A stretch of 38,453 nucleotides of DNA. Origin: a virus (taxonomy: Duplodnaviria; Heunggongvirae; Uroviricota; Caudoviricetes). The stretch lies in IMG/VR virus record IMGVR_UViG_2541047932_000016; one strand, given 5' to 3'. The first letter of the stretch is position 1. Every line of letters begins with the position of its first letter. The position numbers and the translations under genes were made by a program. A model generated the notes under the pieces. The model searched no databases, was not told the DNA's origin, and saw only the letters and a list, made by a program, of their open reading frames with translations. This document shows, piece by piece, positions 1 to 20,043 of this stretch.

Positions 1-1020
1 CTACTTGCTAACCACGAGCGGCAAATCCAGTGTTGGTGTGATTTTTGTTTTACGATCGTAAATCAACACCTGATTTTCTGTTTTATGCCCGCTGAAAATT
101 TGTTTGTCGCGACTGCTGCCTTCGTAATCTGAGATCCCCTTGGCTTTTATGTCGTGAAAATTACACCCGAACGGAACGCCAACTTTTTGCTCGGCTGCGC
201 GTTTAGCCTGATTCCACCAGTTATTCAGCGTTTTAGCTATGACTTTCCCGCCTTTGGTTGTATTGATCACATATTCGCATGTACAGGAAGATACATTTCG
301 GGCTAACTGGATCGCTGTACGTAATCGCGGTGACCATTCCTTGATTTGTTTGGTGCCGGTTTTGTTTTGCTCAATGTAGATCCCTTTATCCATAATATCC
401 TGCCATTTCAACTCAAGCACATCACCGAGTCTTGCCGCACAGAGATAGGAAATCTCCATTGCAATGCGTAACTGTGGAATTGCTTCCGCATATATCGCCG
501 CATACTGTTCATCGGTGATGTAAACAGTGCGGGCTTTAAGAGAGAATTTTCTGACTCCTTTGCATGGGTTATTCTTCACATACCCACGCTCATATCCCCA
601 CCCGTATACTCGACTCAGGCTTGCCAGTTCATGATTTGCCTGGGTCTTGCTCTCAAGCCCTCGTTTATCCATGAAAATTCTTACCTGCTCAGTTTTGACA
701 TTATCAGCAAGCACTTTTCCGAATACCATCAGCAACGCCTTCTGATGTTGTCGATAATCTTTTTGGGTTCGGGGGGCCAGTTCTGTAAATGCAGGGGAGT
801 CCATAAACATGTGCCACAATTTAGCTACGGTCATTATGTTGTGGAGTTTTGCTTTTTCCAGTTCATAATTTTGCCAGACTTTAGCTACGCTGGTTTTCCG
901 CACTCTTCCTAGCCCTATACTTCTTGTACTTCCTTCGGGTTTCCACACGTAACTGTAACCATTCGATCTAACCCGCGGTGGCAGTACATTATCTTTTTTA
1001 TTTTTTCTTGGTCTTCCCAT
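1..1020 (-). CDS. int: Phage integrase, tyrosine recombinase family
   Basis: 339-aa ORF ending at the window edge; translation MGRPRKNKKDNVLPPRVRSNGYSYVWKPEG... looks like a lambdoid prophage integrase; leftmost position next to an xis-like gene is typical. Confidence 0.88.
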   Translation of the reverse strand: MGRPRKNKKDNVLPPRVRSNGYSYVWKPEGSTRSIGLGRVRKTSVAKVWQNYELEKAKLHNIMTVAKLWHMFMDSPAFTELAPRTQKDYRQHQKALLMVFGKVLADNVKTEQVRIFMDKRGLESKTQANHELASLSRVYGWGYERGYVKNNPCKGVRKFSLKARTVYITDEQYAAIYAEAIPQLRIAMEISYLCAARLGDVLELKWQDIMDKGIYIEQNKTGTKQIKEWSPRLRTAIQLARNVSSCTCEYVINTTKGGKVIAKTLNNWWNQAKRAAEQKVGVPFGCNFHDIKAKGISDYEGSSRDKQIFSGHKTENQVLIYDRKTKITPTLDLPLVVSK

Positions 1021-1240
1021 TGTTCAGCGCCTCAAAATCGGGTTCAGCAGAAACCAGTTCAGATGTTTTTGGCATCGTTGTCAGACCGTGTGGAATATCC
1101 CTGCGGAGAACGATGGGTTCGTTTTTAGGGCCGATTACAAATGGGATGCCGTGCAGTCTTAACTGGTGTTGCTGTTTTGTGTATCGCTCGTATTTCGTGA
1201 TCTCTTTAATCTCTGCTGGAGATAGAGTTAATTCGTACAT
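998..1240 (-). CDS. xis: Excisionase, lambda Xis-like
   Basis: 80-aa ORF from an internal ATG at 1238-1240 (MYELTLSPAEIKEITKYERY...NNGKTKKK); begins like lambda Xis (MYLTLQEW...) and ends in a Lys-rich tail; overlaps the int start by 23 nt as in lambda. Confidence 0.55.
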   Translation of the reverse strand: MYELTLSPAEIKEITKYERYTKQQHQLRLHGIPFVIGPKNEPIVLRRDIPHGLTTMPKTSELVSAEPDFEALNNGKTKKK

Positions 1241-1307: not shown

Positions 1308-2267
1308 TCAAAAATCAGCCTGACTCGGGAGCAGTTTTTGCCAGATGGCTGAAACGTATTTCGCCTGGTAACGTGCATCGTTCAGAGCGTTATGGCGTTC
1401 ACCTTCGAATGGAATAGTCGTTCTTGCGTCGAAATCCATCACCAGTCCCAGAGCAACCATCGTTCTTACATCGCGATCATTGGTGTAACGCCACGGGCAG
1501 GGGATCCCCTGCCGTTCATATGAACGGCGTAAAATCACGTTGTCGAAAGTTGCACCGTTACCCCAGACCTGAACAAAAAATTCACCGGAGTTTTCGTCGA
1601 TAAATTCCCGTAATTGCAGCAGTGCATCATCTAACGGGATTTCATCGGTAAGAATGGCGGATTGCGCTTCGCGTGACTGTTTCAGCCACCACTTAATGGT
1701 GTCCCGATCAATGACTCCGCCAGCAGTTTCCAGATCGATAGTTTTGCTGAATTCTGGCCCCATCTCTCCGGTTTGCGGATCGAAAAATATTGCACCTATT
1801 GAGATAATCGGGGCATCAGGATTTTTTCCCATGGTTTCAAGGTCGATCATCAGATGAATCCCCGCTCTGCTGGTGGATGTGAGATTATGATGACCGTTCG
1901 CCTTAATTAAGGGATCTGACGCCTCGCCAGTTTCACTATCGCTGGCATGATGCTGATTGCCGCCAGTGTTCTCCTTGTGCTGATGCGCAGTGCCTTCCAT
2001 TTCCTCCGGATCATTTTCCTGAACTTCAGGCTGATTCTCTTCATCGAATATTTCCTGGTATGTTGCGTCACTTATCACCGCACCACAATCAGGGCAGCTA
2101 CCGCCGCCGGTCTGACCGCAGGCGGTGCAGGCTTTTTCCGGCTCCTGTTTCGTTTCTGGCTCGTTTTGTTGCGCATTTGGGCTGTTTTGTTCCGTTTTCT
2201 GGTCGTTCTGTTCCGATTCTTGCTGGTTCTGGTTCACAGAATCGCAGGTTTCAATCCCTTCACCCAT
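1308..2267 (-). CDS. DEDD-type 3'-5' exonuclease (DnaQ-like, exodeoxyribonuclease VIII-like) with N-terminal Cys-rich zinc finger
   Basis: 319 aa; CTACGQTGGGSCPDCG Cys4 motif, then MIDLETMG...VWGNGATFDNVIL...HNALNDARYQAKY matching Exo I/II/III motifs of DEDDh exonucleases. Confidence 0.65.
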   Translation of the reverse strand: MGEGIETCDSVNQNQQESEQNDQKTEQNSPNAQQNEPETKQEPEKACTACGQTGGGSCPDCGAVISDATYQEIFDEENQPEVQENDPEEMEGTAHQHKENTGGNQHHASDSETGEASDPLIKANGHHNLTSTSRAGIHLMIDLETMGKNPDAPIISIGAIFFDPQTGEMGPEFSKTIDLETAGGVIDRDTIKWWLKQSREAQSAILTDEIPLDDALLQLREFIDENSGEFFVQVWGNGATFDNVILRRSYERQGIPCPWRYTNDRDVRTMVALGLVMDFDARTTIPFEGERHNALNDARYQAKYVSAIWQKLLPSQADF

Positions 2268-3757
2268 TTCGGATCATTCGGATCGCTAATCCCTTCAACA
2301 AATTCACCACGTGATGCAGCAAGCAATTTATCGGCGTCAGGCTGGCTGATATTGGCTGCCTGCATAATTTTGTTTACTTCGTCAGCGGTAACTTTTACCG
2401 GCTCCGGTTGTACGGAATCTTCAGCGGTATCCACATTTTGCGGTAAGTCCGTGTATGTTCCGTTTTTGCGGGCAAGATATTCTTCTTTCGTGATTTCAGT
2501 AGCCCCGGCAGCCAGCGCCTTGTCCAGACCAGAAAGTTTGTTTGCGCGACCGTATTTTTCGCCATCCTTGTCGGTGAAGAGGAAGTAGAACGGCCCCTCA
2601 CGCTCTACAGATGGTTCGACTTCCACTTTGCATTCGGTTTTTTCGTTGTCCGGAATTGCCGTTTCCACTGCATCAGTTTCTGGTACTGGCGACGAGAGAG
2701 TATCAGTTGCGCTCTGATTTCTTCCTTCATCTTCAAACACGCCCTTTGTAGTCAGGTATTCAGTAATGTATTTGTTCAGTGCCACAGGGTCTTTGTGAAT
2801 GTCGATCGGACGTTCACGGACAAGGCCAAAAATAGTCTGGCGGCTGTAGCGAAGCGCATCAGGTTGTTTGCGCATTGATGCGGAGATGCGCTTCCAGTCT
2901 TCGCGATCTCTGGCGATAACTTCATTTTTAGCCCAGCGAAGGATGCTGCCGTCAATGTTTCCGGCATCCGCATCACCAGGCCAGAGATAGTAGGCCAGCT
3001 CCCTGTCCAGGGTTTTCCATGTCTGCTTGTATTCGCGATGAATGGCGGCAGTTACAGGAGGGATTTTTTCTGCTGGGTTTTCAGTGTGCTGTCGGTTGGC
3101 TTTGGCGCGGGCAAGATCAACAACAGACGTGTATTTTCCAGTCTCTTTGCGCTCTGCGTCCTGCCGTTTTTTCCAGTTACGTAATTCAGCCTGAATTTCG
3201 GGCCATTTGGCACCCGGATTACATTTGTGTTTAACCCATCCGATAGCGAACAGTTTGCGTTCCGGATACATAGCGTTAATTTCAGGCGTTTTCATCAGTG
3301 CTTCAACGATATGCCCGTCAAAGGTAGCAACGTCTTCCTGCAGTAATTCCTGCGCGTCAATCGCCATATCAACGGTGATGTTTTCACATGTACCGAACTT
3401 AACCAGGACCGCGTTCTGTACTTCAAGGGACAGCTTGTCAAAATTGACGTTCATCGGATCGGATTCTGGTTCGACCGGAATAAAGGAAGCGGATTCCTCA
3501 TCCCAGCGGTTTTCCTGCATATATTCGGTATCCCAGGAGTCGATAGCAGGGCGGGGCATGCCGGGTTTATCTTCGCAGACAAGAAATTTATAAGCGCAGT
3601 CCTGAGCAGCCGGATAATGTTCCAGGAATTGCCAGTGAAATTTTGCGCGGGCGCGACGTTCATCACCGGCTTCAATGGCAGTGGCTACAGCAACTGCGCC
3701 CTCTTCTTTTATTGCCTGTTCGTCCGGAATGGCGGCGCAAATAAAGACTTTACTCAT
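2234..3757 (-). CDS. Hypothetical phage early protein (507 aa), acidic C-terminal half
   Basis: Long ORF with ATG at 3755-3757 and a GAGG-type RBS; co-oriented with the leftward early operon; no family recognised by eye. Confidence 0.6.
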   Translation of the reverse strand: MSKVFICAAIPDEQAIKEEGAVAVATAIEAGDERRARAKFHWQFLEHYPAAQDCAYKFLVCEDKPGMPRPAIDSWDTEYMQENRWDEESASFIPVEPESDPMNVNFDKLSLEVQNAVLVKFGTCENITVDMAIDAQELLQEDVATFDGHIVEALMKTPEINAMYPERKLFAIGWVKHKCNPGAKWPEIQAELRNWKKRQDAERKETGKYTSVVDLARAKANRQHTENPAEKIPPVTAAIHREYKQTWKTLDRELAYYLWPGDADAGNIDGSILRWAKNEVIARDREDWKRISASMRKQPDALRYSRQTIFGLVRERPIDIHKDPVALNKYITEYLTTKGVFEDEGRNQSATDTLSSPVPETDAVETAIPDNEKTECKVEVEPSVEREGPFYFLFTDKDGEKYGRANKLSGLDKALAAGATEITKEEYLARKNGTYTDLPQNVDTAEDSVQPEPVKVTADEVNKIMQAANISQPDADKLLAASRGEFVEGISDPNDPKWVKGLKPAIL

Positions 3758-3850
3758 TTTGTTTTAACCTCATTACAGATTTAAGGGTGAACAAATCCCT
3801 GCCATTGCTGGCATATAAAAATGAAACCGGATATTAATTACGGTGCTGTT

Positions 3851-4042
3851 TTAAAGTCCTGCCGGTATTTCGTTATTATTAGTGTGAGTAGTTTTATCTA
3901 CCGGATAACAGTTACCGGGAATTTTTTGTTCTGCTGCTGCAGCCATGCATTCTTTCATTGAACCGTATAAGCCAGTCACCAGCTCAAGAGATTCGCCGGA
4001 AACAAGATAAACTGTCAGAACGAGTGCAAATGTTGTATTCAT
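3851..4042 (-). CDS. Small membrane protein, YdfD-like (Qin prophage lysis protein family)
   Basis: 63 aa with N-terminal hydrophobic segment (MNTTFALVLTVYLVSG...); start overlaps dicB stop (ATGA); same size and position as ydfD downstream of dicB in Qin. Confidence 0.45.
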   Translation of the reverse strand: MNTTFALVLTVYLVSGESLELVTGLYGSMKECMAAAAEQKIPGNCYPVDKTTHTNNNEIPAGL

Positions 4043-4227
4043 TGTTTATATCCTTTTTGCAGCAGGTCCAGACGAGCCAGCATTGAAGGAATGCATACTT
4101 CATTTAACAGGTCCTGCTCGAGTTTTCTCTGCTTAATGGCGTCTTCAATAAATGTTTTGTCTCCAGTGATAACGCCAATTTCGAAACGAAGTTCAGACGT
4201 GCTGGCATTACATGATAACTTTTCCAT
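4039..4227 (-). CDS. dicB: Cell division inhibitor DicB
   Basis: 62-aa product MEKLSCNASTSELRFEIGVITGDKTFIEDAIKQRKLEQDLLNEVCIPSMLARLDLLQKGYKQ aligns along its length with E. coli DicB (...EIGV...EDAI.KRK.E..LLN..CI.SMLARL...KG..Q); start taken at the internal ATG 4225-4227, not the longer ORF. Confidence 0.85.
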   Translation of the reverse strand: MEKLSCNASTSELRFEIGVITGDKTFIEDAIKQRKLEQDLLNEVCIPSMLARLDLLQKGYKQ

Positions 4228-4403
4228 TATCGCGTCCTCAACAATGAATTTTGTGATGCGGTGCCTGGTGCCTCCAGGTGACGTTAACCAGTTAACAATT
4301 AACGCCGGATACAGAGAATCCACCCATAACACTGTTTTTGGTTTTAACTGTTCCGCGTGCGCTGAGCCGCATTCACCGCATCACAAAATTCACTTTTAAA
4401 AAA

Positions 4404-4456
4404 GGGCGGCAGAGCAGTCACGGAGTAAAACTGATACCGCCAAATGTCACCAGAAT
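4404..4456 (-). ncRNA. dicF: DicF small regulatory RNA (Hfq-dependent sRNA targeting ftsZ and other mRNAs)
   Basis: Minus-strand sequence ATTCTGGTGACATTTGGCGGTATCAGTTTTACTCCGTGACTGCTCTGCCGCCC is near-identical to the 53-nt E. coli DicF as I recall it, followed by a T-run; lies just upstream of dicB as in Qin. Confidence 0.78.
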
Positions 4457-4794
4457 ATTGATAACAGAGGGCGTTGTAGCGGGGTTGTCACTTAAGCGTA
4501 TGGTCAACCTGACAACCCGGTGTCCTCAACTGGGGAAGGAATAACCCCGCCATACTTACCGCCGCGCCATTTCGCGGATTGCCACAACCGGAAGCGCACG
4601 TTCGAAGAAATCTAACGACAAGCCTTCTAAGGGAAAGAGCTTCGCCGTACGCTTTCGCGTTATGCCCTGACTTTTCAGGGAAATATCCTTTCAGTAAACT
4701 GTCAGTACCGGATTCTTATCCGTGTCCGGCGCACGACCACACGTGACAGCGTGTTGGTCTCCATTTTTAACCCAGAACCTCAATGGAGGATAAA

Positions 4795-5004
4795 ATGCCA
4801 AACAAAAAAAGAAATCCGCTTATTGAAAAACAGATTGAATGCCTGGTAAATCAACTCAGGCAATCAGGGTTATTAAAAACTCATTCAGAGTTGAGGCTCA
4901 CAGAATCAGCATTCGACGATAAATTAAATAATGTCCTTTATAATGGCATTATTGATTTTAATCGTTCTGTTGGTCGCCGCGGCCCTGCTGGTGTTTCCTT
5001 ATAA
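4795..5004 (+). CDS. Hypothetical small protein (69 aa)
   Basis: ATG at 4795 preceded by GGAGG at 5-nt spacing; convergent with the 216-aa gene and abutting it stop-to-stop with zero gap; product MPNKKRNPLIEKQIECLVNQLRQSG... not recognised. Confidence 0.35.
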   Translation: MPNKKRNPLIEKQIECLVNQLRQSGLLKTHSELRLTESAFDDKLNNVLYNGIIDFNRSVGRRGPAGVSL

Positions 5005-5655
5005 TTACCAGTCAATCCAGAGTGGACCGTGTTCAGCGTAAATATAACTGTACACATCCAGATTATATTTGTGGTCTGTTAAGAACAGGCCGCAAATACA
5101 TGCCGAAGCTTCCAGTGCAGCGGCTCTGTTACTGAATAACCATGTAGCAACATTCCAGCGTTTTTCTGCATCCCAGTCTTTCTCAAGGCCTGATACCATG
5201 AAGAAACCGTTAGTGTTGCCATCAAATAATTCTGTTTCCAAATTTTTAAGCAATGCCTGATGGACTCTTGCCAGGTATTCCGCCGGAATTTCGCCACGAA
5301 TTCTAATGAGATTGTCATAAACAAACATGTTCCCCGCATATGGCGATTTTTCTTTCTTGTTTTTTAAACCAGCATCATGAGCAAACTGATCAATTTCTTC
5401 TTCCGTTGGTTTCGTATTGATGTTTTGCGCTGTCGTTTCTGCAATTTTATTTGCCATACTCTCTGAGTCGTGTTTATTTATAGACGCACAGAAATACAAT
5501 CCGGTAAACGCATCGCGCACATTACGAGCCATATTATCAGTGTCTTTTTTCGTTACCGATTCCAATTCAAGTTCGTTCAGACGATGACGAAGTGTGTGTG
5601 CTGCAATCTCCTGGATTGAAGGAGGTAAATCTTTAAATTCCATCGTCAATCTCAT
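5005..5655 (-). CDS. Hypothetical protein (216 aa), first large gene of the leftward early operon
   Basis: ORF with ATG at 5653-5655; no hydrophobic segments, no Arg-rich N-like motif; lies downstream of the putative PL/OL region. Confidence 0.65.
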   Translation of the reverse strand: MRLTMEFKDLPPSIQEIAAHTLRHRLNELELESVTKKDTDNMARNVRDAFTGLYFCASINKHDSESMANKIAETTAQNINTKPTEEEIDQFAHDAGLKNKKEKSPYAGNMFVYDNLIRIRGEIPAEYLARVHQALLKNLETELFDGNTNGFFMVSGLEKDWDAEKRWNVATWLFSNRAAALEASACICGLFLTDHKYNLDVYSYIYAEHGPLWIDW

Positions 5656-5807
5656 CAGTCAGAGTTTCTTGCTAACCAGCGACGCGCGCCAGCTTCCGTT
5701 TTAAACGTTTTGCTTCTGGTATACGTCATCGCGGTGAACGTGCCGTCCAGGTTGGGGAATACTCCGCATACCAGAGATTCGTTGTTGCCAAGATTGAGCA
5801 TATCCAT
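5655..5807 (-). CDS. Small ORF (50 aa), translationally coupled to the 216-aa gene
   Basis: ATG at 5805-5807 with GAGG RBS 5-6 nt upstream; product MDMLNLGNNESLVCGVFPNLDGTFTAMTYTRSKTFKTEAGARRWLARNSD; its TGA overlaps the downstream ATG (TGATG). Absent from the ORF track because it is under 60 aa. Confidence 0.4.
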   Translation of the reverse strand: MDMLNLGNNESLVCGVFPNLDGTFTAMTYTRSKTFKTEAGARRWLARNSD

Positions 5808-5984
5808 GTTGACCTCATTTACCCTTAACGCCGGGTCGCGGAACTAAAAACCTGCTGCGCTGTTATACAAAGTGTTCCCGCCGTCATGTTCATACGCCTC
5901 GGGCTGGCTACTTAACCCCTGGCCACTGCCGGGTAACTCGAGGTATTGCCCTGCATTCTGTGGGGTGGGTGGGTGATGAATAAA

Positions 5985-6036
5985 CAATAGCACTGCTATT
6001 TTATTGTGTAAATAGTAATGCTATTGTTTTTTTGGA
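5985..6036 (-). promoter_or_regulatory. Putative leftward early promoter with operators (PL/OL-like)
   Basis: Two copies of the 13-bp palindrome ATAGC-N3-GCTAT (5987-5999 ATAGCACTGCTAT; 6012-6024 ATAGTAATGCTAT) overlapping a minus-strand TTTACA-N17-TATTGT promoter-like element; the same palindrome recurs between the repressor and cro-like genes. Confidence 0.45.
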
Positions 6037-6039
6037 GGT

Positions 6040-6075
6040 AAGAAAAAAAACCACCCGAAGGTGGTTGTTGGTAGG
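6040..6075 (-). terminator. Rho-independent terminator downstream of the repressor-TA operon
   Basis: Minus strand reads ACCACCTTCGGGTGGT followed by a T-run, immediately after the parE2-like stop. Confidence 0.6.
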
Positions 6076-6080
6076 AATGA

Positions 6081-6371
6081 TTAACAGCTTTTGTTTGGAT
6101 ACTGCCTTCGTGAGTGAACTACATTTACGATCTCGATGTTAGATGCTGTTACTCGGTAAAGTATTATGTAGTTAGGATGGGTCACTATCTCACGAAGGCC
6201 TAGAGCTCTTTCGCTTGGTGGATACAGGTAAGGGTGTTCAGAAAGTGACAAAACTGATGTTTCAATGCGTATTTTTAGTCTACGTGCAGCGGGAGGGTTT
6301 TCCTTGGCAATATAGGCCACGATCTGACGCAAATCATCACGCGCAGAAGGTAGCCATAAAATGGGCAGCAT
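6081..6371 (-). CDS. parE2: ParE/RelE-family toxin (ParE2-like)
   Basis: 96 aa; MLPILWLPSARDDLRQIVAYIAKENPPAARRLKIRIETSV... is typical of ParE toxins; start overlaps the upstream antitoxin stop by 1 nt. Confidence 0.8.
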   Translation of the reverse strand: MLPILWLPSARDDLRQIVAYIAKENPPAARRLKIRIETSVLSLSEHPYLYPPSERALGLREIVTHPNYIILYRVTASNIEIVNVVHSRRQYPNKSC

Positions 6372-6562
6372 TACTCACTCCTGTTCGTCGAAGCTATTTG
6401 CGCAATAAGGTTTTCCATTTCAGCCATTACTTCGTCATGCGGAATTGCAGGACGGGGGTCTGCGAGGCTTGCTGCCACTTTGGTGCGTAACCATTCGTTA
6501 TAGCTGTTTTCTTGTTCGATTGTTTCAAATTCTGAAATTATCGGGGAAAGGACTGTACTCAT
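6371..6562 (-). CDS. paaA2: PaaA2-like antitoxin
   Basis: 63 aa; SEFETIEQENSYNEWLR.KVAASLADPRPAIPHDEV matches my recollection of E. coli O157 PaaA2; GGAGG RBS; directly upstream of the ParE-like toxin. Confidence 0.72.
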   Translation of the reverse strand: MSTVLSPIISEFETIEQENSYNEWLRTKVAASLADPRPAIPHDEVMAEMENLIAQIASTNRSE

Positions 6563-6579: not shown

Positions 6580-7080
6580 TTAGGCGCGACGACCTTTTTG
6601 CGCCTCTAGCCACCGCGCAACGGTTTCTTCAATTGATTCTTTTTTCTCCTTCATTTCCTTAAGCATTTTCTCTTTGTCTTCTTTTGGGAAAGCCCTGAAC
6701 GTCTGGATCAAATCTCGCTCTATAGGTTCTATATTAAACGGAAGTTCGTTTTCCGATTGCTCCATCTCTGCGGGTAAAGCGACAACATTATCCTGCTGCA
6801 GTTCTTGGGGGTACATCCTTACAATTCGTAACAAGTCTGCCATATCTGGTCTAATTGACTCAGGCGGAACTTGTAGCAACCCAGCGAACTTGATAACAGC
6901 CTCTAGATTTAAAGGTGTCTGACCATTTAGATAATGGCTTACTGCCCCTTGTGTCGAAAAACCCAGAATTTCTGCCGCACGCTCTTGGGTTAACCCAAGT
7001 TGAGTTTTTTTCGTCGTCCAGATTTCTTTCAGTCTCTGGGCGGCTTGCAGGTCGATCTCTGACAGGGGTTTTCTTTTCAT
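6580..7080 (-). CDS. Prophage repressor, HTH XRE family (CI-like, no S24 peptidase domain)
   Basis: 166 aa; HTH segment LGLTQERAAEILGFSTQGAVSHYLNG; divergent from a cro-like gene across an operator-bearing intergenic region; C-terminus is Lys/Glu-rich, not LexA-like. Confidence 0.8.
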   Translation of the reverse strand: MKRKPLSEIDLQAAQRLKEIWTTKKTQLGLTQERAAEILGFSTQGAVSHYLNGQTPLNLEAVIKFAGLLQVPPESIRPDMADLLRIVRMYPQELQQDNVVALPAEMEQSENELPFNIEPIERDLIQTFRAFPKEDKEKMLKEMKEKKESIEETVARWLEAQKGRRA

Positions 7081-7187
7081 ACCTTCAATTCTAATAAGAT
7101 TATTAATCTCTTTGAAATAGCGATGCTATTTACTTTCAAAAATAACAATGCTATTAATGCTCATGGTCACATAACATGAGGTGAACA
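7081..7187. promoter_or_regulatory. Divergent immunity promoter/operator region (OR/PR/PRM-like)
   Basis: 107-bp AT-rich intergenic region between divergent repressor and cro-like genes; contains palindromes AGATTATTAATCT (7097-7109) and ATAGCGATGCTAT (7117-7129). Confidence 0.55.
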
Positions 7188-7451
7188 ATGAATCTTGGAG
7201 AATATTTGCATCATTCCCGTATAACCCAGAAAGATTTTGCTGAAATTGTTGGGGTAACCCAAGGGATGGTAAGCCATGTTATTACTGGACGGGCGAAACT
7301 TACGGGGGGGAAAGTTTTACGCTGGTGTGAAGCAACAGGGTGGGTAGTGACCCCGCACGAGATTGATAGCAGTACTTACCCCAACCCAACCGATGGCATA
7401 CCTGTTGACTATCAGGCTAACACACAACCCGCGCTGGGAGTTGATTCATGA
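7188..7451 (+). CDS. Cro/YdaS-like HTH regulator
   Basis: 87 aa; HTH ITQKDFAEIVGVTQGMVSHVITG; GAGGTG RBS; first rightward gene opposite the repressor. Confidence 0.7.
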   Translation: MNLGEYLHHSRITQKDFAEIVGVTQGMVSHVITGRAKLTGGKVLRWCEATGWVVTPHEIDSSTYPNPTDGIPVDYQANTQPALGVDS

Positions 7452-13203: not shown

Positions 13204-13503
13204 TTATAAGAAATCGGTTTCATAACTTTGCCCACCATGATAGATACCGACAATAAAGACTTTTCTGCTATCAACGGCAAAAGCAATAATCGTTCTGTGG
13301 CGGAAATGAGTTACCCGCATCCCCTGGCGAATATCATCGCGTTTATTGCCCCGATGCGGGAATGTAGAAAACCCATCAAGATAATCAAGAAGCGCATTGG
13401 CATAATTGTCAGCAATGACGTTCCCTGCTTTCTCCGTTATATACCTGTGCAGGTTGATTATTTGTTGTTCGGCCTCAGGAGTAATGATGACTTCATATGT
13501 CAT
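13204..13503 (-). CDS. parE: ParE-family toxin
   Basis: 99 aa; MTYEVIITPEAEQQIINLHRYITEKAGNVIADNYANALL... is ParE/RelE-like; 5 nt downstream of a ParD-like antitoxin. Confidence 0.8.
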   Translation of the reverse strand: MTYEVIITPEAEQQIINLHRYITEKAGNVIADNYANALLDYLDGFSTFPHRGNKRDDIRQGMRVTHFRHRTIIAFAVDSRKVFIVGIYHGGQSYETDFL

Positions 13504-13508
13504 GCAGA

Positions 13509-13766
13509 TTACTTCCCGGATCGAATCGCGGCGCGAACCTGTGAAATGGAGCGTCCGTTGTTTGGGTTTTCGCGGATAGAATCAAGAGAGGGGGCGGCTG
13601 AATGCGTTAACCACGCTTCGATTGCTTTATCGCGCTCATTCAGTGCGCGAAGCCCTTCACGAATGACCTCGCTTTCTGAAGCATAGGCACCGGAAGCCAC
13701 ACGGGCGCGCACCATGTCAGCCATTTCGTTAGTTAATGTAATGCTGAATTGTTGGGTTGTACGCAT
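13509..13766 (-). CDS. parD: ParD-family antitoxin (ribbon-helix-helix)
   Basis: 85 aa from internal ATG 13764-13766 (MRTTQQFSITLTNEMADMVRARVASGAYASESEVIREGLRAL...). Confidence 0.75.
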   Translation of the reverse strand: MRTTQQFSITLTNEMADMVRARVASGAYASESEVIREGLRALNERDKAIEAWLTHSAAPSLDSIRENPNNGRSISQVRAAIRSGK

Positions 13767-13901
13767 GGTAAACCTCACGGAGTAGGATAGAACACCATTC
13801 GATGATAGCACGTTGCCTGTTGACGACAACAGAAATCAGAGACAATATTGCCGCACGCCAGCTTGAACAACTGGCACCTGCTGCGCCAGCAGAGAAAACC
13901 G

Positions 13902-16711: not shown

Positions 16712-17425
16712 ATGGTTGTTGTCTGTTCAGTTATCATGGTTTGCTCCCCAATTAATATTTTTCTTGAAAAGGATACGTTGTCACTTAAGCCCGGCTCAGT
16801 CGTTCTGGCCACCAAATGCATCAGGGCGCTTTTCCTTATGCATTATGGCAAAGTTAAAATTTTCGATATAAACCATTCCATAGTAAGTCAATATCTGGAA
16901 ATTCAGCATAAGCTGACAAGAACTCATCTGACTGACGTTCCGCTTTATCTGTCACTGGAACCCAACAACCCTGCGTTGGCTGAGGCTTTAATTACCAGCC
17001 AGAGATTTTCCGGAGATACCACGGATATGTTTCTTATGATGGCATGCCTGTCGCTGTTTGAATCAGATGAACGGATATTATTATTTTTAAGTGGATGTTT
17101 ATCCAGTATAAGTGCCAAAGTCAGGGCGATAATTCAGACAGATATATCAGCAAGCTGGACGCTTGGTGCGATTGCGTTACGCCTGCATATGAGTGAGAGT
17201 TTGTTAAAGATAAAACTGAAAAATGAAGGGCACATGTTCAGTCGCTTGTTGCTGGAAGAGCGGATGCGTGTTGCTGTCAATATGTTATGTTCCCGGCATG
17301 GATATGGACAGGCTGTAGCAGAAAAATGCGGTTATTCAAGCTGGTCCTACTTTATTTCTGTATTTCACCGCTATTATGGCTTCCCGCCAGACAGATATGT
17401 ATCCAGGCAAGGGCTTGATTATTGA
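16712..17425 (+). CDS. AraC-family transcriptional regulator
   Basis: 237 aa; C-terminal AraC-type HTH (WTLGAIALRLHMSESLLKIKLKNEGHMFSRLL...GYSSWSYFISVFHRYYGFPP); markedly AT-rich gene. Confidence 0.75.
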   Translation: MVVVCSVIMVCSPINIFLEKDTLSLKPGSVVLATKCIRALFLMHYGKVKIFDINHSIVSQYLEIQHKLTRTHLTDVPLYLSLEPNNPALAEALITSQRFSGDTTDMFLMMACLSLFESDERILLFLSGCLSSISAKVRAIIQTDISASWTLGAIALRLHMSESLLKIKLKNEGHMFSRLLLEERMRVAVNMLCSRHGYGQAVAEKCGYSSWSYFISVFHRYYGFPPDRYVSRQGLDY

Positions 17426-17453: not shown

Positions 17454-17529
17454 GGCCCTTTAGCTCAGTGGTGAGAGCGAGCGACTCATAATCGCCAGGT
17501 CGCTGGTTCAAATCCAGCAAGGGCCACCA
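17454..17529 (+). tRNA. tRNA with CAT anticodon (Ile2/Met type; ileX/ileZ-like)
   Basis: Hand-folded 76-nt cloverleaf: acceptor GGCCCTT/AAGGGCC, anticodon loop CTCATAA, T-loop TTCAAAT, 3' CCA. Confidence 0.8.
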
Positions 17530-17536
17530 TCACATA

Positions 17537-17613
17537 CCGCCATTAGCTCATCAGGAAAGAGCGCCAGCTTTCGAAGCTGGTTGCGCGGAGTTCGGGTCCC
17601 CGAAGGCGGTCCA
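17537..17613 (+). tRNA. tRNA-Arg-like (anticodon TCG by hand folding), possibly degenerate
   Basis: 77 nt: acceptor CCGCCAT/AAGGCGG (one A-A mismatch), anticodon loop TTTCGAA, T-stem with one mismatch, T-loop TTCGGGT (non-canonical G at position 58), CCA. Confidence 0.5.
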
Positions 17614-17626
17614 TTATCTGTATCCT

Positions 17627-17703
17627 GCGTTGTTAGCTCAGCCGGACAGAGCAATTGCCTTCTAAGCAATCGGTCACTGGTTCGAATCCAGTACAACGCG
17701 CCA
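17627..17703 (+). tRNA. tRNA-Arg (anticodon TCT)
   Basis: 77 nt: acceptor GCGTTGT/ACAACGC, anticodon stem ATTGC/GCAAT, loop CTTCTAA, T-loop TTCGAAT, discriminator G, CCA. Confidence 0.8.
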
Positions 17704-18192
17704 CACTTATTTTCCCTGGCTCGCTTTTGCGGGCCTTTTTTTTAAATGTCTCACAATTCAGGCGGTTGACTGTTGTCTGGTTTGCGGGGAGTTTGTTAAA
17801 AGAAACTGGCATGGTGAATCCCCCTGTGCGGAGGGGCAATCAGCGAGTAGGTATATGGGATAATCGCGGATTCAGGTGCTGGTACTGAATTCACCGGGAG
17901 GCACCCGGCACCATGCAATGGCACATAGCGCCACTCTCCAGCCCCTCTCCGGAGGGGCTTTCTTATGGACAAAAAAAGCCCGCGCAGGGAGACGCGGGCG
18001 GCAAGGAATAAACAACAAAACGTGAAGTAATATTTCAGCTGGCGAATAATATCCGACAGTAATCACTCTGCGCAATAGCGCGGCCTTTTTCGTATTGCGG
18101 GCTGTTGTCTCTCTTCTGCCATTGTCCTGTAACTTCCGGACTTCAGCCCGCTCCTCATTTTACTCACAATATTATCCCGGCCGGGAGGATTC

Positions 18193-20043
18193 ATGGCATT
18201 TAAACACTATGATGTTGTCAGGGCGGCGTCGCCGTCAGACCTTGCGGAAAAGCTGACACACAAACTGAAAGAGGGCTGGCAGCCATACGGCGGACCGGTT
18301 GCCATTACGCCGTACACACTGATGCAGGCGGTGGCTATTGAAGGAGATCCACAGGTCGGCCCTTCATCTAAGCCGGACTGGTTCTACGTGGTTGTGCTTG
18401 CCGGACAGTCCAACGGCATGGCCTACGGTGAAGGGCTTCCGTTACCGGATTCTTACGATGCTCCGGATCCGCGCATTAAACAGCTGGCGCGCCGCAGCAC
18501 GGTAACTCCGGGTGGAGAGAGTTGTACGTATAACGACATCATTCCGGCTGACCACTGCCTGCATGATGTGCAGGATATGAGTACGCTGAATCATCCGAAG
18601 GCAGACCTGAGCAAAGGGCAGTACGGCTGTGTCGGCCAGGGCTTACATATTGCCAAAAAACTGCTTCCGTATATCCCGAATAACGCGGGGATCCTGCTGG
18701 TACCATGCTGTCGTGGTGGTTCTGCATTCACCCAGGGCGCTGAGGGGACATTCAGTGCGGACACGGGGGCCAGCCAGGATTCGGCACGCTGGGGTGTGGG
18801 TAAACCGTTATATCAGGACCTGATTGCGCGCACTAAAGCTGCATTACAGAAGAACCCGAAAAATGTGTTGCTGGCGGTGTGCTGGATGCAGGGAGAGTTT
18901 GACATGAGCGCCGCCACCCACGCACAGCAACCTGCGCTGTTTACAGCCATGCTGACACAGTTTCGTGCTGACCTCTCCGTGTTTAACGCGCAGTGCCATG
19001 GTGGCAGTGCTGCAGATGTGCCGTGGATTTGTGGTGACACGACGTATTACTGGAAAAATACCTACGGCACCCAGTACAACACCATTTACGGGGCGTACAA
19101 AAACAGGGAGAGTGAGGGCGTTTATTTTGTGCCCTTCATGACAGACGGTAACGGCGTCAATACCGCCACTAACGCGCCGGCAGAAGATCCGGATATTCCG
19201 GCATCAGGATATTACGGTGCGGCATCGAGAACGAATGGAAACCAGGTATCATCAAACCGCCCGACACATTTCAGTTCATGGGCGCGCAGGAGCATTATTC
19301 CGGATCGTCTGGCAACCGCTATTCTGAACGCAGCCGGGCGCACCTCCGCCTTCATCAGTGGTAAGGCACCGGAAATCAAACCCTCGCCCGGCGGCAACAC
19401 GCCATCGGGTCCGTCTGCAGATACGTCCGTTCGCACAATCTCCCTGCTGCCGGCAGCCGGAGAGGCTGCTGCGCAGGGCTGGAGCATTAAGGATGGCGGA
19501 ATTCAGTTGTCAGATGGTGTATTTAAGATCACCAAGCAGAGCAATAAAACCTGGTCCCTGACGCATCCGGTGGATGACGCAATTACCCTGCTGACACAGG
19601 GCGGCAGACTGAACTGTAAGTTCCGCCTGTCAGGCGCACTGACCAACAATCAGTTCGGGCTGGGGATTTATCTGTATACGGATGCTCCCGTTCCTGATGG
19701 TGTGGCGATGACGGGTACCGGTAATCCGTTCCTGATGTCGTACTTCACTCAGACCACTGACGGCAGAGTGAATCTGATGCATCACAGGAAAGCCGGAAAC
19801 ACGAAGCTGGGAGAGTTCGGCGATTACGGTAACGACTGGCAGACGCTGGAGCTGGTGTTCACCGCCGGCAGTGCCACGGTTACTCCGAAACTGAATGGAG
19901 TGGCTGGCCCGGCATTCCAGGTTATAAAAGACAGTCTGACACTGGGACTGAATGCGCTGACGCTGACGGATGTTACAAAAAATGCAGCGTATGGCGTTGA
20001 GATAGAAAGTCTGGTGCTGGAGATAAATGCACCGGCAGCATAA
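18193..20043 (+). CDS. nanS-p: NanS-p-like sialate O-acetylesterase (DUF1737 N-domain plus SGNH/DUF303 esterase)
   Basis: 616 aa; N-terminus MAFKHYDVVRAASPSDLAEKLTHKLKEGWQPYGGP...; VVLAGQSNGMAYGEG esterase motif; GGGAGG RBS; same position as nanS-p in Stx-type phages. Confidence 0.8.
   Translation: MAFKHYDVVRAASPSDLAEKLTHKLKEGWQPYGGPVAITPYTLMQAVAIEGDPQVGPSSKPDWFYVVVLAGQSNGMAYGEGLPLPDSYDAPDPRIKQLARRSTVTPGGESCTYNDIIPADHCLHDVQDMSTLNHPKADLSKGQYGCVGQGLHIAKKLLPYIPNNAGILLVPCCRGGSAFTQGAEGTFSADTGASQDSARWGVGKPLYQDLIARTKAALQKNPKNVLLAVCWMQGEFDMSAATHAQQPALFTAMLTQFRADLSVFNAQCHGGSAADVPWICGDTTYYWKNTYGTQYNTIYGAYKNRESEGVYFVPFMTDGNGVNTATNAPAEDPDIPASGYYGAASRTNGNQVSSNRPTHFSSWARRSIIPDRLATAILNAAGRTSAFISGKAPEIKPSPGGNTPSGPSADTSVRTISLLPAAGEAAAQGWSIKDGGIQLSDGVFKITKQSNKTWSLTHPVDDAITLLTQGGRLNCKFRLSGALTNNQFGLGIYLYTDAPVPDGVAMTGTGNPFLMSYFTQTTDGRVNLMHHRKAGNTKLGEFGDYGNDWQTLELVFTAGSATVTPKLNGVAGPAFQVIKDSLTLGLNALTLTDVTKNAAYGVEIESLVLEINAPAA

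What the first reader, a model, noticed from the sequence alone, without database searches (positions are those of the whole stretch)
3851..4456. DicF sRNA, dicB and a ydfD-like gene embedded in an otherwise lambda-like prophage
A near-exact copy of the 53-nt DicF sRNA (not detectable from an ORF track), then a DicB homolog and a 63-aa membrane protein of YdfD size and position. DicB and DicF are known to inhibit cell division and to modulate phage susceptibility through ManYZ and manX. Here they sit in the PL-driven operon of a prophage that otherwise looks structurally intact, so prophage induction could couple to host division arrest. The ydfABC genes that precede dicF in Qin are absent.
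Basis: partly seen in the sequence, partly recalled or inferred. Interest (0 to 1): 0.45.

Follow-up and report, generated by a model that had tools for sequence, protein, structure and literature searches.

The report
Known dicF-dicB-ydfD prophage division-inhibitor cassette
This is a correctly spotted but ordinary copy of the well-studied dicF small RNA, DicB and YdfD cell-division and lysis cassette, which most E. coli genomes carry in the early-left operon of lambda-like prophages.

Summary
On the minus strand, dicF (4404-4456) scores 77 bits against Rfam DicF (cutoff 48) and matches K-12 dicF at 51 of 53 bases. DicB (4039-4227; Pfam 131.8 bits) and a YdfD/DUF1482 protein (3851-4042) follow, overlapping by 4 nt as in K-12. 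The cassette lies downstream of a PL-type promoter. Two 15-bp palindromic operators at 5986-6025 repeat the pair between the repressor and cro genes (7116-7155); that is 4 matches against 0.13 expected by chance.

Two side claims fail. A YdfA homolog (84% identical) is present upstream, so only ydfB and ydfC are replaced. The prophage is not fully intact, because the exonuclease gene carries a private 1-nt frameshift.

The arrangement is already known. At least 80% of the cassette is present in 3,769 of 5,426 complete E. coli genomes, and it also occurs in isolated temperate phages. The literature describes several dicF copies in EHEC lambdoid prophages.

One addition is modestly new. The most conserved part of the cassette is non-coding: the leader hairpin, dicF, and a 150-nt structured dicF-dicB spacer. 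The spacer's closing helix coincides with the published RNase III site and resembles the core of the STnc100 sRNA. The same unit precedes kilR in other phages.

The parts
5984..6025 (-). PL-type early-left promoter with two 15-bp palindromic operators (AATAGCACTGCTATT at 5986-6000, AATAGTAATGCTATT at 6011-6025). The operators overlap the -10 (5989-5984, TATTGT with an upstream TG) and the -35 (6012-6007, TTTACA).
   Evidence: The same 40-nt two-operator module occurs between the repressor and cro genes. There are 4 matches in the window against 0.13 expected.
7116..7155 (.). OR-type operator pair between the HTH repressor gene (6580-7080, minus strand) and the cro-like gene (7188-7451, plus strand).
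6049..6066 (-). Intrinsic terminator-like hairpin plus T-run. It would end the repressor and PaaA2/ParE transcript just upstream of the PL-type promoter.
5655..5807 (-). ydfA homolog (50 aa, DUF1391), the first gene of the early-left operon.
   Evidence: 83.7% identical to K-12 YdfA. Pfam DUF1391 at 98.5 bits. phrog_751.
5005..5655 (-). 216-aa ORF of unknown function, occupying the position of ydfB and ydfC.
   Evidence: No Pfam or NCBIfam match. phrog_2151 at 488 bits. No similarity to YdfB or YdfC.
4583..4664 (-). Conserved long leader hairpin upstream of dicF. The position corresponding to the 5' end of the published 190-nt RNase III product (-137, about 4593) lies in its 3' arm.
   Evidence: 19 consensus pairs, 99.3% of cells paired in 57 distinct variants; controls with slid partners. 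Processing data from bioRxiv 10.1101/2023.04.14.536235, read.
4404..4456 (-). dicF sRNA gene (53 nt) with its terminator hairpin. The U-run follows at 4398-4403.
   Evidence: Rfam RF00039 at 77 bits. 51 of 53 identical to K-12. nt 13-53 identical to K-12.
4245..4395 (-). Structured dicF-dicB spacer: a multi-branch fold closed by a helix of about 20 bp (5' arm about 4374-4392). The helix contains the position of the published RNase III cut that gives the 72-nt DicF. The fold resembles the STnc100 core at sub-threshold level.
   Evidence: RF02076 at 37.4 bits, below the cutoff of 47, E 6.6e-7, model positions 21-154; folding z = -6.6; conservation and pairing. PMC9438474 for the 72-nt species.
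4039..4227 (-). dicB (62 aa), with a GAGGA Shine-Dalgarno sequence at 4235-4239.
   Evidence: Sequence read.
3851..4042 (-). ydfD-like gene (63 aa, DUF1482, hydrophobic N-terminus). Its start overlaps the dicB stop by 4 nt.
1308..3757 (-). Exonuclease gene downstream in the same operon (equivalent to K-12 ydfE). It is split into two ORFs by a 1-nt deletion near 2255.
1..1240 (-). DUF4224 (Xis-position) gene and tyrosine integrase, at the end of the early-left arm.

Best explanation
This is a standard dicBF-type module in the early-left (PL-equivalent) operon of a lambdoid E. coli prophage. It is orthologous to the ydfA...dicF-dicB-ydfD-ydfE segment of K-12 Qin.

In the lysogen, the HTH repressor (6580-7080) is expected to bind the two palindromic operators that overlap the promoter at 5984-6025 and keep the operon silent. 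This step is inferred from the operator duplication.

On derepression, transcription would run through ydfA, orf216, the leader, dicF, dicB, ydfD, the exonuclease, the xis-position gene and int.

DicF would be released in two ways. Termination at its own hairpin and U-run plus RNase E trimming gives the 53-nt form. RNase III cuts in the conserved upstream hairpin and in the closing helix of the downstream structure give the 190-nt and 72-nt forms. These steps are shown for K-12 in the literature and inferred here from 96-97% sequence conservation.

DicF would then repress ftsZ translation through its 3' region, which is unchanged here. Transcripts that read through the dicF terminator would give DicB, which with MinC blocks septation and inhibits ManYZ. 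They would also give the translationally coupled YdfD, a lysis protein that targets IspG in K-12.

The net effect is a block of host division, with altered sugar uptake and phage entry, whenever the prophage's early-left operon is on.
For: - Identities of the three genes.
- Colinear DNA homology to Qin from 280 nt upstream of dicF into ydfE (85.6% over 1,753 nt).
- Same gene order in O26:H11 prophages, in phage Tritos (where dicF is annotated) and in K-12.
- Operator pair duplicated at the OR-type and PL-type positions (4 matches against 0.13 expected), overlapping a promoter-like site and preceded by a terminator.
- DicB follows dicF at a fixed 175-188 nt in 102 of 106 loci.
- Leader hairpin and spacer helix are conserved and coincide with the published RNase III products; papers read.
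- DicF nt 13-53 are identical to K-12, and the 3' region is the ftsZ-pairing part; PMC5069750.
- Functions of DicB and YdfD: PMC6832061 and PMC8835842.
Against: - There is no expression data for this element.
- DicB is only 55% and YdfD only 63% identical to the K-12 proteins that were tested, so MinC, ManYZ and IspG activities are assumed rather than shown.
- The dicF terminator looks efficient, and no N-like antiterminator was found in the early-left arm. How much transcription reaches dicB, ydfD, the exonuclease and int is therefore unknown. In K-12 no full-length ydfABC-dicFB-ydfDE species was detected.
- The repressor has no S24 peptidase domain, and no Rem homolog was found in the window, so the inducing signal is unknown.
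- A plus-strand ORF (4783-5004) lies convergent within the operon.
Confidence: 0.85

Rival explanations
1. The cassette mainly benefits the lysogen rather than serving the lytic cycle. Low-level or stochastic expression from the resident prophage would give DicF-mediated regulation of host metabolism and virulence genes, and DicB-mediated exclusion of phages that use ManYZ. Division arrest on induction would then be a side effect.
For: - The cassette is retained in 3,769 of 5,426 complete genomes, often in several copies per genome (median 2 places), including clearly defective prophages such as Qin.
- The literature shows DicF accumulating in stationary phase, spontaneous derepression in subpopulations, protection against lambda through ManYZ, and virulence regulation in EHEC.
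- The G12A variant of the 5' seed would weaken the predicted xylR pairing by about 6 kcal/mol, which hints at allele-specific host targets.
Against: - The cassette is also kept in isolated, functional temperate phages (Tritos, mEp460_ev081, PhiR42_1, HannyBb).
- In other phages the same slot holds a different FtsZ inhibitor, KilR. This points to selection for division inhibition within the phage early programme itself.
- The two readings are not mutually exclusive.
Confidence: 0.35
2. The cassette is a silent, decaying remnant in a prophage that is becoming cryptic, with no current function in this strain.
For: - The adjacent exonuclease gene carries a frameshift that no complete E. coli genome shares.
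- The best-known copy, in Qin, sits in a defective prophage.
Against: - dicF, dicB, ydfD, ydfA, the promoter and operators, the repressor, cro, and the lysis and head genes are all uninterrupted.
- The non-coding block is 96-98% conserved across 96 distinct loci.
- The single-base deletion could be a sequencing error.
Confidence: 0.1
3. dicB and ydfD are driven by their own promoter inside the dicF-dicB spacer and are independent of the PL-type promoter.
For: - An older study cited in the 2023 paper proposed a promoter upstream of dicB.
- A weak promoter-like match lies at 4241-4212 on the minus strand (9 of 12).
Against: - The promoter scan found no more sites than shuffled sequence gives (7 found against 7.0 expected), and that match overlaps the dicB start codon.
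- Primer extension in K-12 found no additional promoter within the operon.
- The spacer's conservation is better explained by its RNA structure and the RNase III site.
Confidence: 0.07

Closest known systems
dicBF operon (ydfABC-dicF-dicB-ydfDE) of the cryptic prophage Qin, E. coli K-12
   Same: - Same order and spacing of ydfA, dicF, dicB, ydfD and the exonuclease (ydfE).
- Colinear DNA homology: 85.6% over 1,753 nt. By feature: dicF 96%, spacer 97%, leader 90%.
- The operon lies downstream of a cI-type repressor gene and its operators, like the dicA/dicBp layout.
   Different: - ydfB and ydfC are replaced by a 216-aa ORF.
- DicB and YdfD are divergent alleles (55% and 63% protein identity).
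- The repressor is not a DicA ortholog: there is only a weak C-terminal similarity (NCBIfam 28.7 bits against a cutoff of 101), and its operators are its own.
- A PaaA2/ParE toxin-antitoxin pair sits between the repressor gene and the promoter.
- The surrounding prophage keeps its lysis, head and tail genes.
dicF-dicB copies in the lambdoid prophages of EHEC and STEC (O157:H7 CP-933M/O/P and Sp prophages; O26:H11 strain 11368)
   Same: - Essentially the same element. The 1.1-kb cassette is 99.9% identical to a prophage next to yccA in O26:H11 strain 11368, with the same flanking int, DUF4224, exonuclease, ydfA-like, ParE/RelB and HTH repressor genes.
- The literature records 4 dicF copies in EHEC (PMC5069750).
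   Different: - The window as a whole is a mosaic not found full-length in any complete genome (best match covers 76% at 96%).
- It carries a private exonuclease frameshift.
Functional temperate phages carrying dicF-dicB-ydfD (mEp460_ev081, Tritos, PhiR42_1, HannyBb)
   Same: Same cassette between the exonuclease and the immunity region, 86% DNA identity over 88-94% of the query. dicF is annotated in Tritos. mEp460_ev081 is discussed in the 2023 Vanderpool paper.
   Different: Those phages carry K-12-type DicB and YdfD alleles and ydfB/ydfC-like small ORFs. Their immunity regions differ.
Lambda Kil and Rac KilR, FtsZ inhibitors of the PL operon
   Same: - Small division inhibitors expressed from the early-left operon on induction.
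- In some dicF loci, and in Rac-SA53 and Stx phage 75/02, a KilR-type gene occupies exactly the dicB slot behind the same structured RNA.
   Different: The proteins are unrelated and use different mechanisms. Kil and KilR act on FtsZ, whereas DicB acts through MinC. Lambda has N antitermination, which is not seen here.
STnc100 (RF02076) and PasD prophage sRNAs
   Same: The dicF-dicB spacer aligns to the STnc100 core (model positions 21-154). The closing helix and two hairpins are kept through compensatory differences, and the CACCnGGAGGCACCnGGCACC motif is shared.
   Different: - The score is below the gathering threshold (37.4 against 47).
- The spacer lacks the 5' 20 nt and the 3' terminator hairpin of the sRNA.
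- Naive pairwise identity to the window's own STnc100 is only 48%.
- It lies inside an mRNA, upstream of a coding gene, rather than being a terminated sRNA.

Membership tests
DicF RNA (Rfam RF00039) | Covariance-model score at or above the curated gathering score, over the full model. | tested here: met
   77.0 bits against 48, model 1-52 of 52, no non-canonical pairs.
DicF RNA (Rfam RF00039) | Unpaired 5' region, then a terminator hairpin followed by a U-run. | tested here: met
   CM structure line. Six U at 4398-4403 on the minus strand.
DicF RNA (Rfam RF00039) | The 3'-region sequence that pairs with the ftsZ ribosome-binding site. | tested here: met
   nt 13-53 are identical to K-12 DicF. 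The 3' region is the ftsZ-pairing part (PMC5069750). My own duplex energies were not discriminating.
DicF RNA (Rfam RF00039) | Produced as a species of about 53 nt by termination plus RNase E and RNase III processing; binds Hfq. | not testable with these tools
   Only the conserved processing hairpins could be shown.
DicB (Pfam PF05358, NCBIfam NF049927) | Full-length match above the curated cutoffs, in a protein of about 62 aa. | tested here: met
   Pfam 131.8 bits against 27, residues 1-62 of 62. NCBIfam 123.7 bits against 100.
DicB (Pfam PF05358, NCBIfam NF049927) | MinC-dependent block of septation and inhibition of ManYZ. | not testable with these tools
   This allele is 55% identical to the K-12 protein that was tested.
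YdfD / DUF1482 (PF07358) | Match above the cutoff, about 63 aa, hydrophobic N-terminus, translationally coupled to dicB. | tested here: met
   69.2 bits against 25. 63.5% identical to K-12 YdfD. 4-nt overlap with dicB.
YdfD / DUF1482 (PF07358) | Lysis through IspG inhibition. | not testable with these tools
   Known only for K-12 YdfD (PMC8835842).
Qin-type dicBF operon | ydfA, ydfB and ydfC upstream of dicF. | tested here: inconclusive
   ydfA is present at 84% identity. ydfB and ydfC are absent and replaced by orf216. The literature already notes variants lacking ydfB.
Qin-type dicBF operon | DicA repressor with a Rem antirepressor. | tested here: not met
   The repressor shows only a weak C-terminal DicA similarity (28.7 bits against 101; 25% identity over 51 aa). 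tblastn found no Rem in the window. The window lacks the right end of the prophage.
Lambda-type PL operon | Repressor operators duplicated at the PL and PR positions and overlapping the promoters. | tested here: met
Lambda-type PL operon | N antiterminator as the first PL gene. | tested here: not met
   The first gene is ydfA (DUF1391). No ORF between the promoter and int matched an N family in Pfam, NCBIfam or PHROGs. nut sites were not searched for.
STnc100 (Rfam RF02076), for the dicF-dicB spacer | Score at or above the gathering score, and a full-length model match including the terminator. | tested here: not met
   37.4 bits against 47, model positions 21-154 only. K-12 scores 34.4, Tritos 33.5 and Rac-SA53 43.8 bits. 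It is related to the family but not a member.

The most novel reading that the evidence does not exclude
The unit under selection is not dicF alone but a three-part RNA module:
1. A processing hairpin.
2. dicF, or in Rac a diverged dicF-like hairpin.
3. A 150-nt multi-branch structure, cut by RNase III, that directly precedes whichever division inhibitor the phage carries (dicB-ydfD or kilR).

The structure shares ancestry with the core of the STnc100 and PasD prophage sRNAs found in the late region. It would act as a cis leader that gates translation or stability of the toxic inhibitor mRNA after read-through of the dicF terminator. I found no paper in the searchable library that links the dicF-dicB spacer to STnc100.
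Probability: 0.3. Interest if true: 0.35.

Novelty: already known. Interest (0 to 1): 0.12.

Why it matters
It matters little as a discovery. The cassette, its location in lambdoid prophages, its multiple copies in pathogenic E. coli and its presence in functional phages are all published.

It is useful for annotation, because dicF and the processing structures are invisible to ORF-based pipelines. RefSeq leaves the 560 nt between dicB and the next gene unannotated in the O26 relative.

The side observation could guide experiments on how these toxic genes are held in check. The non-coding block, including an STnc100-like structure, is better conserved than DicB or YdfD, and it is shared with kilR loci.

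Tried and rejected
- **Source of the window:** I searched the first 25 kb against complete E. coli genomes. There was no full-length match (best 76% coverage at 96% identity), so the window is a mosaic.
- **YdfB/YdfC inside the 216-aa ORF:** no similarity.
- **Rem, HokD, YdfV and FlxA homologs in the window:** none found by tblastn.
- **RNAduplex of DicF against the ftsZ, xylR and manX leaders:** energies for the real sRNA fall within the range of shuffled DicF, because full-length duplexes ignore intramolecular structure. I used only the local effect of G12A on the xylR duplex, and otherwise relied on sequence identity of nt 13-53.
- **Covariation in the spacer and leader hairpin:** pairing is kept in 99% of cells, against 17-56% with slid partners. 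However, the loci are 96-98% identical, and only one pair in each element shows a true double change. Covariation alone therefore does not prove the folds. The structures were also derived from the same alignments.
- **Conservation statistics:** the loci were collected with an exact 20-base dicF seed, so the dicF value is biased upward.
- **Promoter scan:** overall it is no better than shuffled sequence. The PL assignment rests on the operator duplication and not on the hexamers.
- a regular-expression error of mine produced no usable result. It was redone.
Full report

Yes. A covariance-model scan of the whole window against Rfam places DicF (RF00039) at 4404-4455 on the minus strand. It scores 77.0 bits against a gathering score of 48, covers the full model, and has no non-canonical pairs. 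Against the 53-nt K-12 dicF, the window sequence 4404-4456 has 51 of 53 identities, differing at nt 1 (U to A) and nt 12 (G to A). The A12 form is also the Rfam consensus. It occurs in 16 of the 124 dicF loci examined.

Downstream on the same strand lie two genes:
- A 62-aa ORF at 4039-4227. It matches Pfam DicB at 131.8 bits (cutoff 27) and NCBIfam CellDivInhibDicB at 123.7 bits (cutoff 100). It is 54.8% identical to K-12 DicB end to end.
- A 63-aa ORF at 3851-4042. It matches DUF1482 at 69.2 bits and is 63.5% identical to K-12 YdfD.

The two ORFs overlap by 4 nt, exactly as in K-12.

**2. Context: what kind of element is this?**

The window begins at the stop codon of a tyrosine integrase. 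On the minus strand, reading from high to low coordinates, the order is:
- HTH repressor, 6580-7080
- PaaA2/ParE toxin-antitoxin pair, 6081-6562
- Terminator-like hairpin, 6049-6066
- Promoter and operators, 5984-6025
- ydfA homolog, 5655-5807
- 216-aa ORF, 5005-5655
- About 550 nt of non-coding leader
- dicF, structured spacer, dicB, ydfD
- Exonuclease, 1308-3757
- DUF4224 gene
- int

To the right, on the plus strand, are cro-like and YdaT-like genes, replication genes (DnaD-like loader, DnaC-like ATPase), a nin-type region with RusA, and a Q-like antiterminator. Then come an AraC-family regulator, three tRNAs, a full STnc100 sRNA and a SASA esterase. After these lie a P21-type holin, lysozyme, Rz, Nu1, gpA, lambda-family portal, gpC protease, gpE capsid and the tail genes up to the window end. 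So the late half is lambda-type, while the early-left arm is Qin/Rac-type.

**3. Is the cassette in a PL-type operon?**

The sequence supports this. A 40-nt module with two 15-bp palindromes (consensus AATAGCAnTGCTATT) lies between the repressor and cro genes at 7116-7155. It is repeated at 5986-6025. With up to 2 mismatches, these four are the only matches in 38 kb, against 0.13 expected by chance.

The left-hand pair overlaps a minus-strand promoter-like site: TTTACA, 17 nt, TATTGT with an upstream TG, at 6012-5984. It lies 23 nt downstream of a strong terminator-like hairpin that would end the repressor and toxin-antitoxin transcript. This mirrors lambda's cI-rexAB, then OL/PL. It also mirrors the published dicA, then dicBp layout.

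The promoter hexamers alone are not significant, since the scan found 7 sites against 7.0 expected in shuffles. The case therefore rests on the operators.

No N-like gene was found between this promoter and int. The repressor lacks a self-cleaving peptidase domain, and no Rem antirepressor homolog was found in the window. The inducing signal, and the way transcription passes the dicF terminator, both remain open.

**4.

- 'The ydfABC genes are absent' is only partly true. A YdfA homolog is present (83.7% identical; DUF1391 at 98.5 bits). ydfB and ydfC are replaced by a conserved phage ORF of unknown function, phrog_2151.
- 'Otherwise structurally intact' is overstated. Compared with the intact 816-aa allele of O26:H11 strain 11368, the exonuclease gene has a 1-nt deletion near 2255, which splits it into ORFs of 507 and 319 aa. 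None of the 5,426 complete genomes shares the deletion; the best matches are 99.5% identical and 212 nt long against 211. It is either a recent mutation or a sequencing error.
- The window also stops inside the tail region, so the right end cannot be judged.

**5. How common and how well known is this?**

The 1.1-kb cassette (3700-4800) finds a match in 4,748 of 5,426 complete E. coli genomes. In 3,769 of them the match covers at least 80% of the query. The median is 2 places per genome and the maximum is 10. It is 99.9-100% identical to prophages of O26:H11 and other strains. In O26 strain 11368 the same gene neighbourhood sits next to yccA.

It also occurs in 61 phage records. These include isolated temperate phages, among them Tritos (where dicF, dicB and ydfD are annotated), mEp460_ev081, PhiR42_1 and HannyBb.

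The literature already covers the ground:
- dicBF lies in many E. coli prophages, with several copies in the O157:H7 lambdoid prophages CP-933M/O/P (PMC5069750).
- EHEC strains carry four dicF copies (PMC7873438).
- The functional phage mEp460_ev081 carries dicB, dicF, dicAC and rem.
- DicB inhibits ManYZ (PMC6832061).
- YdfD is a lysis protein that targets IspG (PMC8835842).

**6. Anatomy of the non-coding part**

Against K-12, the coding genes are the least conserved part of the cassette:

| Feature | Identity to K-12 |
|---|---|
| dicB | 72.5% |
| ydfD | 75.5% |
| Leader | 90% |
| dicF | 96% |
| dicF-dicB spacer | 97% |

The same pattern holds across 96 distinct loci collected from IMG/VR with a dicF seed:

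| Feature | Mean pairwise identity |
|---|---|
| Leader, -150 to -1 | 96.4% |
| dicF (biased upward by the seed) | 98.3% |
| Spacer | 96.8% |
| dicB | 83.3% |
| ydfD | 78.4% |
| Leader, further upstream | 70.7% |

Two structures explain most of this.

First, there is a long hairpin at 4583-4664. It has 19 consensus pairs, with 99.3% of cells paired in 57 variants. Its 3' arm contains the position (-137, about 4593) that corresponds to the 5' end of the published 190-nt RNase III product.

Second, the spacer (about 4245-4395) folds into a multi-branch structure closed by a helix of about 20 bp. Its folding z-score is -6.6 against dinucleotide shuffles. It has 40 consensus pairs, with 99.1% of cells paired. 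At variable pairs the figure is 97.6%, against 17-56% when partners are slid. A review citing Faubladier et al. 1990 states that RNase III processing of read-through RNA gives a 72-nt DicF (PMC9438474). That cut, 19 nt past the 53-nt end, falls at about 4383-4385, inside the 5' arm of this closing helix. This part of the structure is therefore, in effect, already known.

Covariation is weak because the copies are nearly identical. There is one C-G, U-G, U-A series in the helix, and everything else is wobble changes.

**7. The STnc100 resemblance**

A permissive Rfam scan aligns the spacer (4250-4390) to the core of STnc100 (RF02076, model positions 21-154). The score is 37.4 bits, below the gathering score of 47, with E 6.6e-7 for the 281-nt search and 6.1e-6 for 2.6 kb. 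The closing helix and two hairpins are kept through compensatory differences from the model consensus, and the motif CACCnGGAGGCACCnGGCACC is shared.

The same sub-threshold match recurs elsewhere:
- K-12: 34.4 bits
- Tritos: 33.5 bits
- Rac-SA53: 43.8 bits
- Shigella Stx phage 75/02: 32.9 bits

The spacer fails the family's membership test on two counts, the score and the missing terminator. I therefore call it related, not a member. The one recent preprint on STnc100 and PasD evolution that I could read does not mention DicF.

**8. The module precedes different inhibitors**

DicB follows dicF at 175-188 nt in 102 of 106 loci. In the four exceptions, homology ends exactly at the 3' end of the closing helix. 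In two of these, the next gene is a KilR-type FtsZ inhibitor (NCBIfam NF008465 at 139.7 bits against a cutoff of 92; phrog_294).

In the functional phage Rac-SA53, kilR is preceded by a diverged DicF-like hairpin (41.1 bits, below the cutoff) and then the STnc100-like structure. So the layout of hairpin or sRNA, then structured RNA, then division inhibitor is shared between Qin-type and Rac-type early-left operons.

This is the most novel reading the data allow. It is a modest extension of known biology.

**9. DicF target regions**

Published mutational work shows that the 3' region of DicF pairs with the ftsZ ribosome-binding site, and the 5' end pairs with xylR and pykA. Here nt 13-53 are unchanged, so ftsZ repression should be retained; this is inference from identity. 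The G12A change removes a central G-C pair in the predicted xylR duplex, changing -33.7 to -27.9 kcal/mol. Whole-molecule duplex energies were not better than shuffled controls, so I do not rely on them.

**10. Verdict**

The core interpretation is correct, and two side claims are wrong. The feature is a routine, already-described prophage module. Interest is low. The only mildly new point is the conserved structured spacer and its link to STnc100 and to kilR loci.

Noticed in passing
window 17454-20043: Three tRNA genes lie at 17454-17703: Met-CAT, Arg-TCG and Arg-TCT. A full-length STnc100 sRNA (138 bits) follows 77 nt later at 17780-17970, and then a DUF1737/SASA esterase gene. In Stx2 phages, STnc100 lies 75 nt downstream of the stx2 operon (PMC12370729), so this looks like a late region of that type without toxin genes.
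   Followed up: partly
window 16712-17425 (+): An AraC-family regulator lies between the Q-like antiterminator gene and the tRNAs. Its best matches are YdeO and GadX, both below the NCBIfam cutoffs. It is a candidate prophage-encoded regulator of host genes.
   Followed up: no
window 1308-3757 (-), around 2255: A 1-nt deletion relative to the O26:H11 allele splits the 816-aa exonuclease into two ORFs. No complete E. coli genome shares it, so it is either a recent mutation or a sequencing error.
   Followed up: yes
window 6081-6562 (-) and 13204-13829 (-): There are two ParE-family toxin-antitoxin pairs in one prophage. The first (PaaA2/ParE) sits between the repressor gene and the PL-type promoter, in the position of lambda rexAB.
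   Followed up: partly
window 4783-5041 (+): A conserved phage ORF of unknown function (phrog_4274, 173 bits) is oriented against the early-left operon, between orf216 and the dicF leader. An overlapping 36-aa, strongly hydrophobic ORF (4931-5041) matches no family.
   Followed up: partly
L127 (Escherichia phage Rac-SA53) 975-1208; L128 (Shigella phage 75/02 Stx) 1467-1665: Upstream of kilR in Rac-SA53 there is a diverged DicF-like hairpin (41.1 bits, cutoff 48), followed by an STnc100-like structure (43.8 bits). The Stx phage has the STnc100-like structure upstream of kil. Neither is annotated.
   Followed up: partly
window 7080-7116 (-): The longest repressor ORF starts at an ATG at 7080, only about 8 nt after a promoter-like -10 (7093-7088). 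The mRNA could therefore be leaderless, as for lambda cI from PRM. RefSeq annotates a shorter 133-aa version in the O26 relative.
   Followed up: no
phage records MT713136.1 (Aeromonas phage AP1) and PP818812.1 (Actinobacillus phage vB_Apl-pPE4): The Aeromonas jumbo-phage record contains a 96.8% match to the E. coli dicF and spacer. The Actinobacillus phage record encodes an E. coli-type KilR (82% identical). These could reflect contamination or chimeric assemblies in those records.
   Followed up: no
window 4039-4227 (-): The DicB allele here is a minority type. It is found in 5 of 106 dicF loci sampled, a count that includes the window itself and its O26 relative, and it is always paired with the same YdfD allele. 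K-12-type DicB occurs with either YdfD type, so the two small genes recombine as separate alleles between conserved non-coding flanks.
   Followed up: partly
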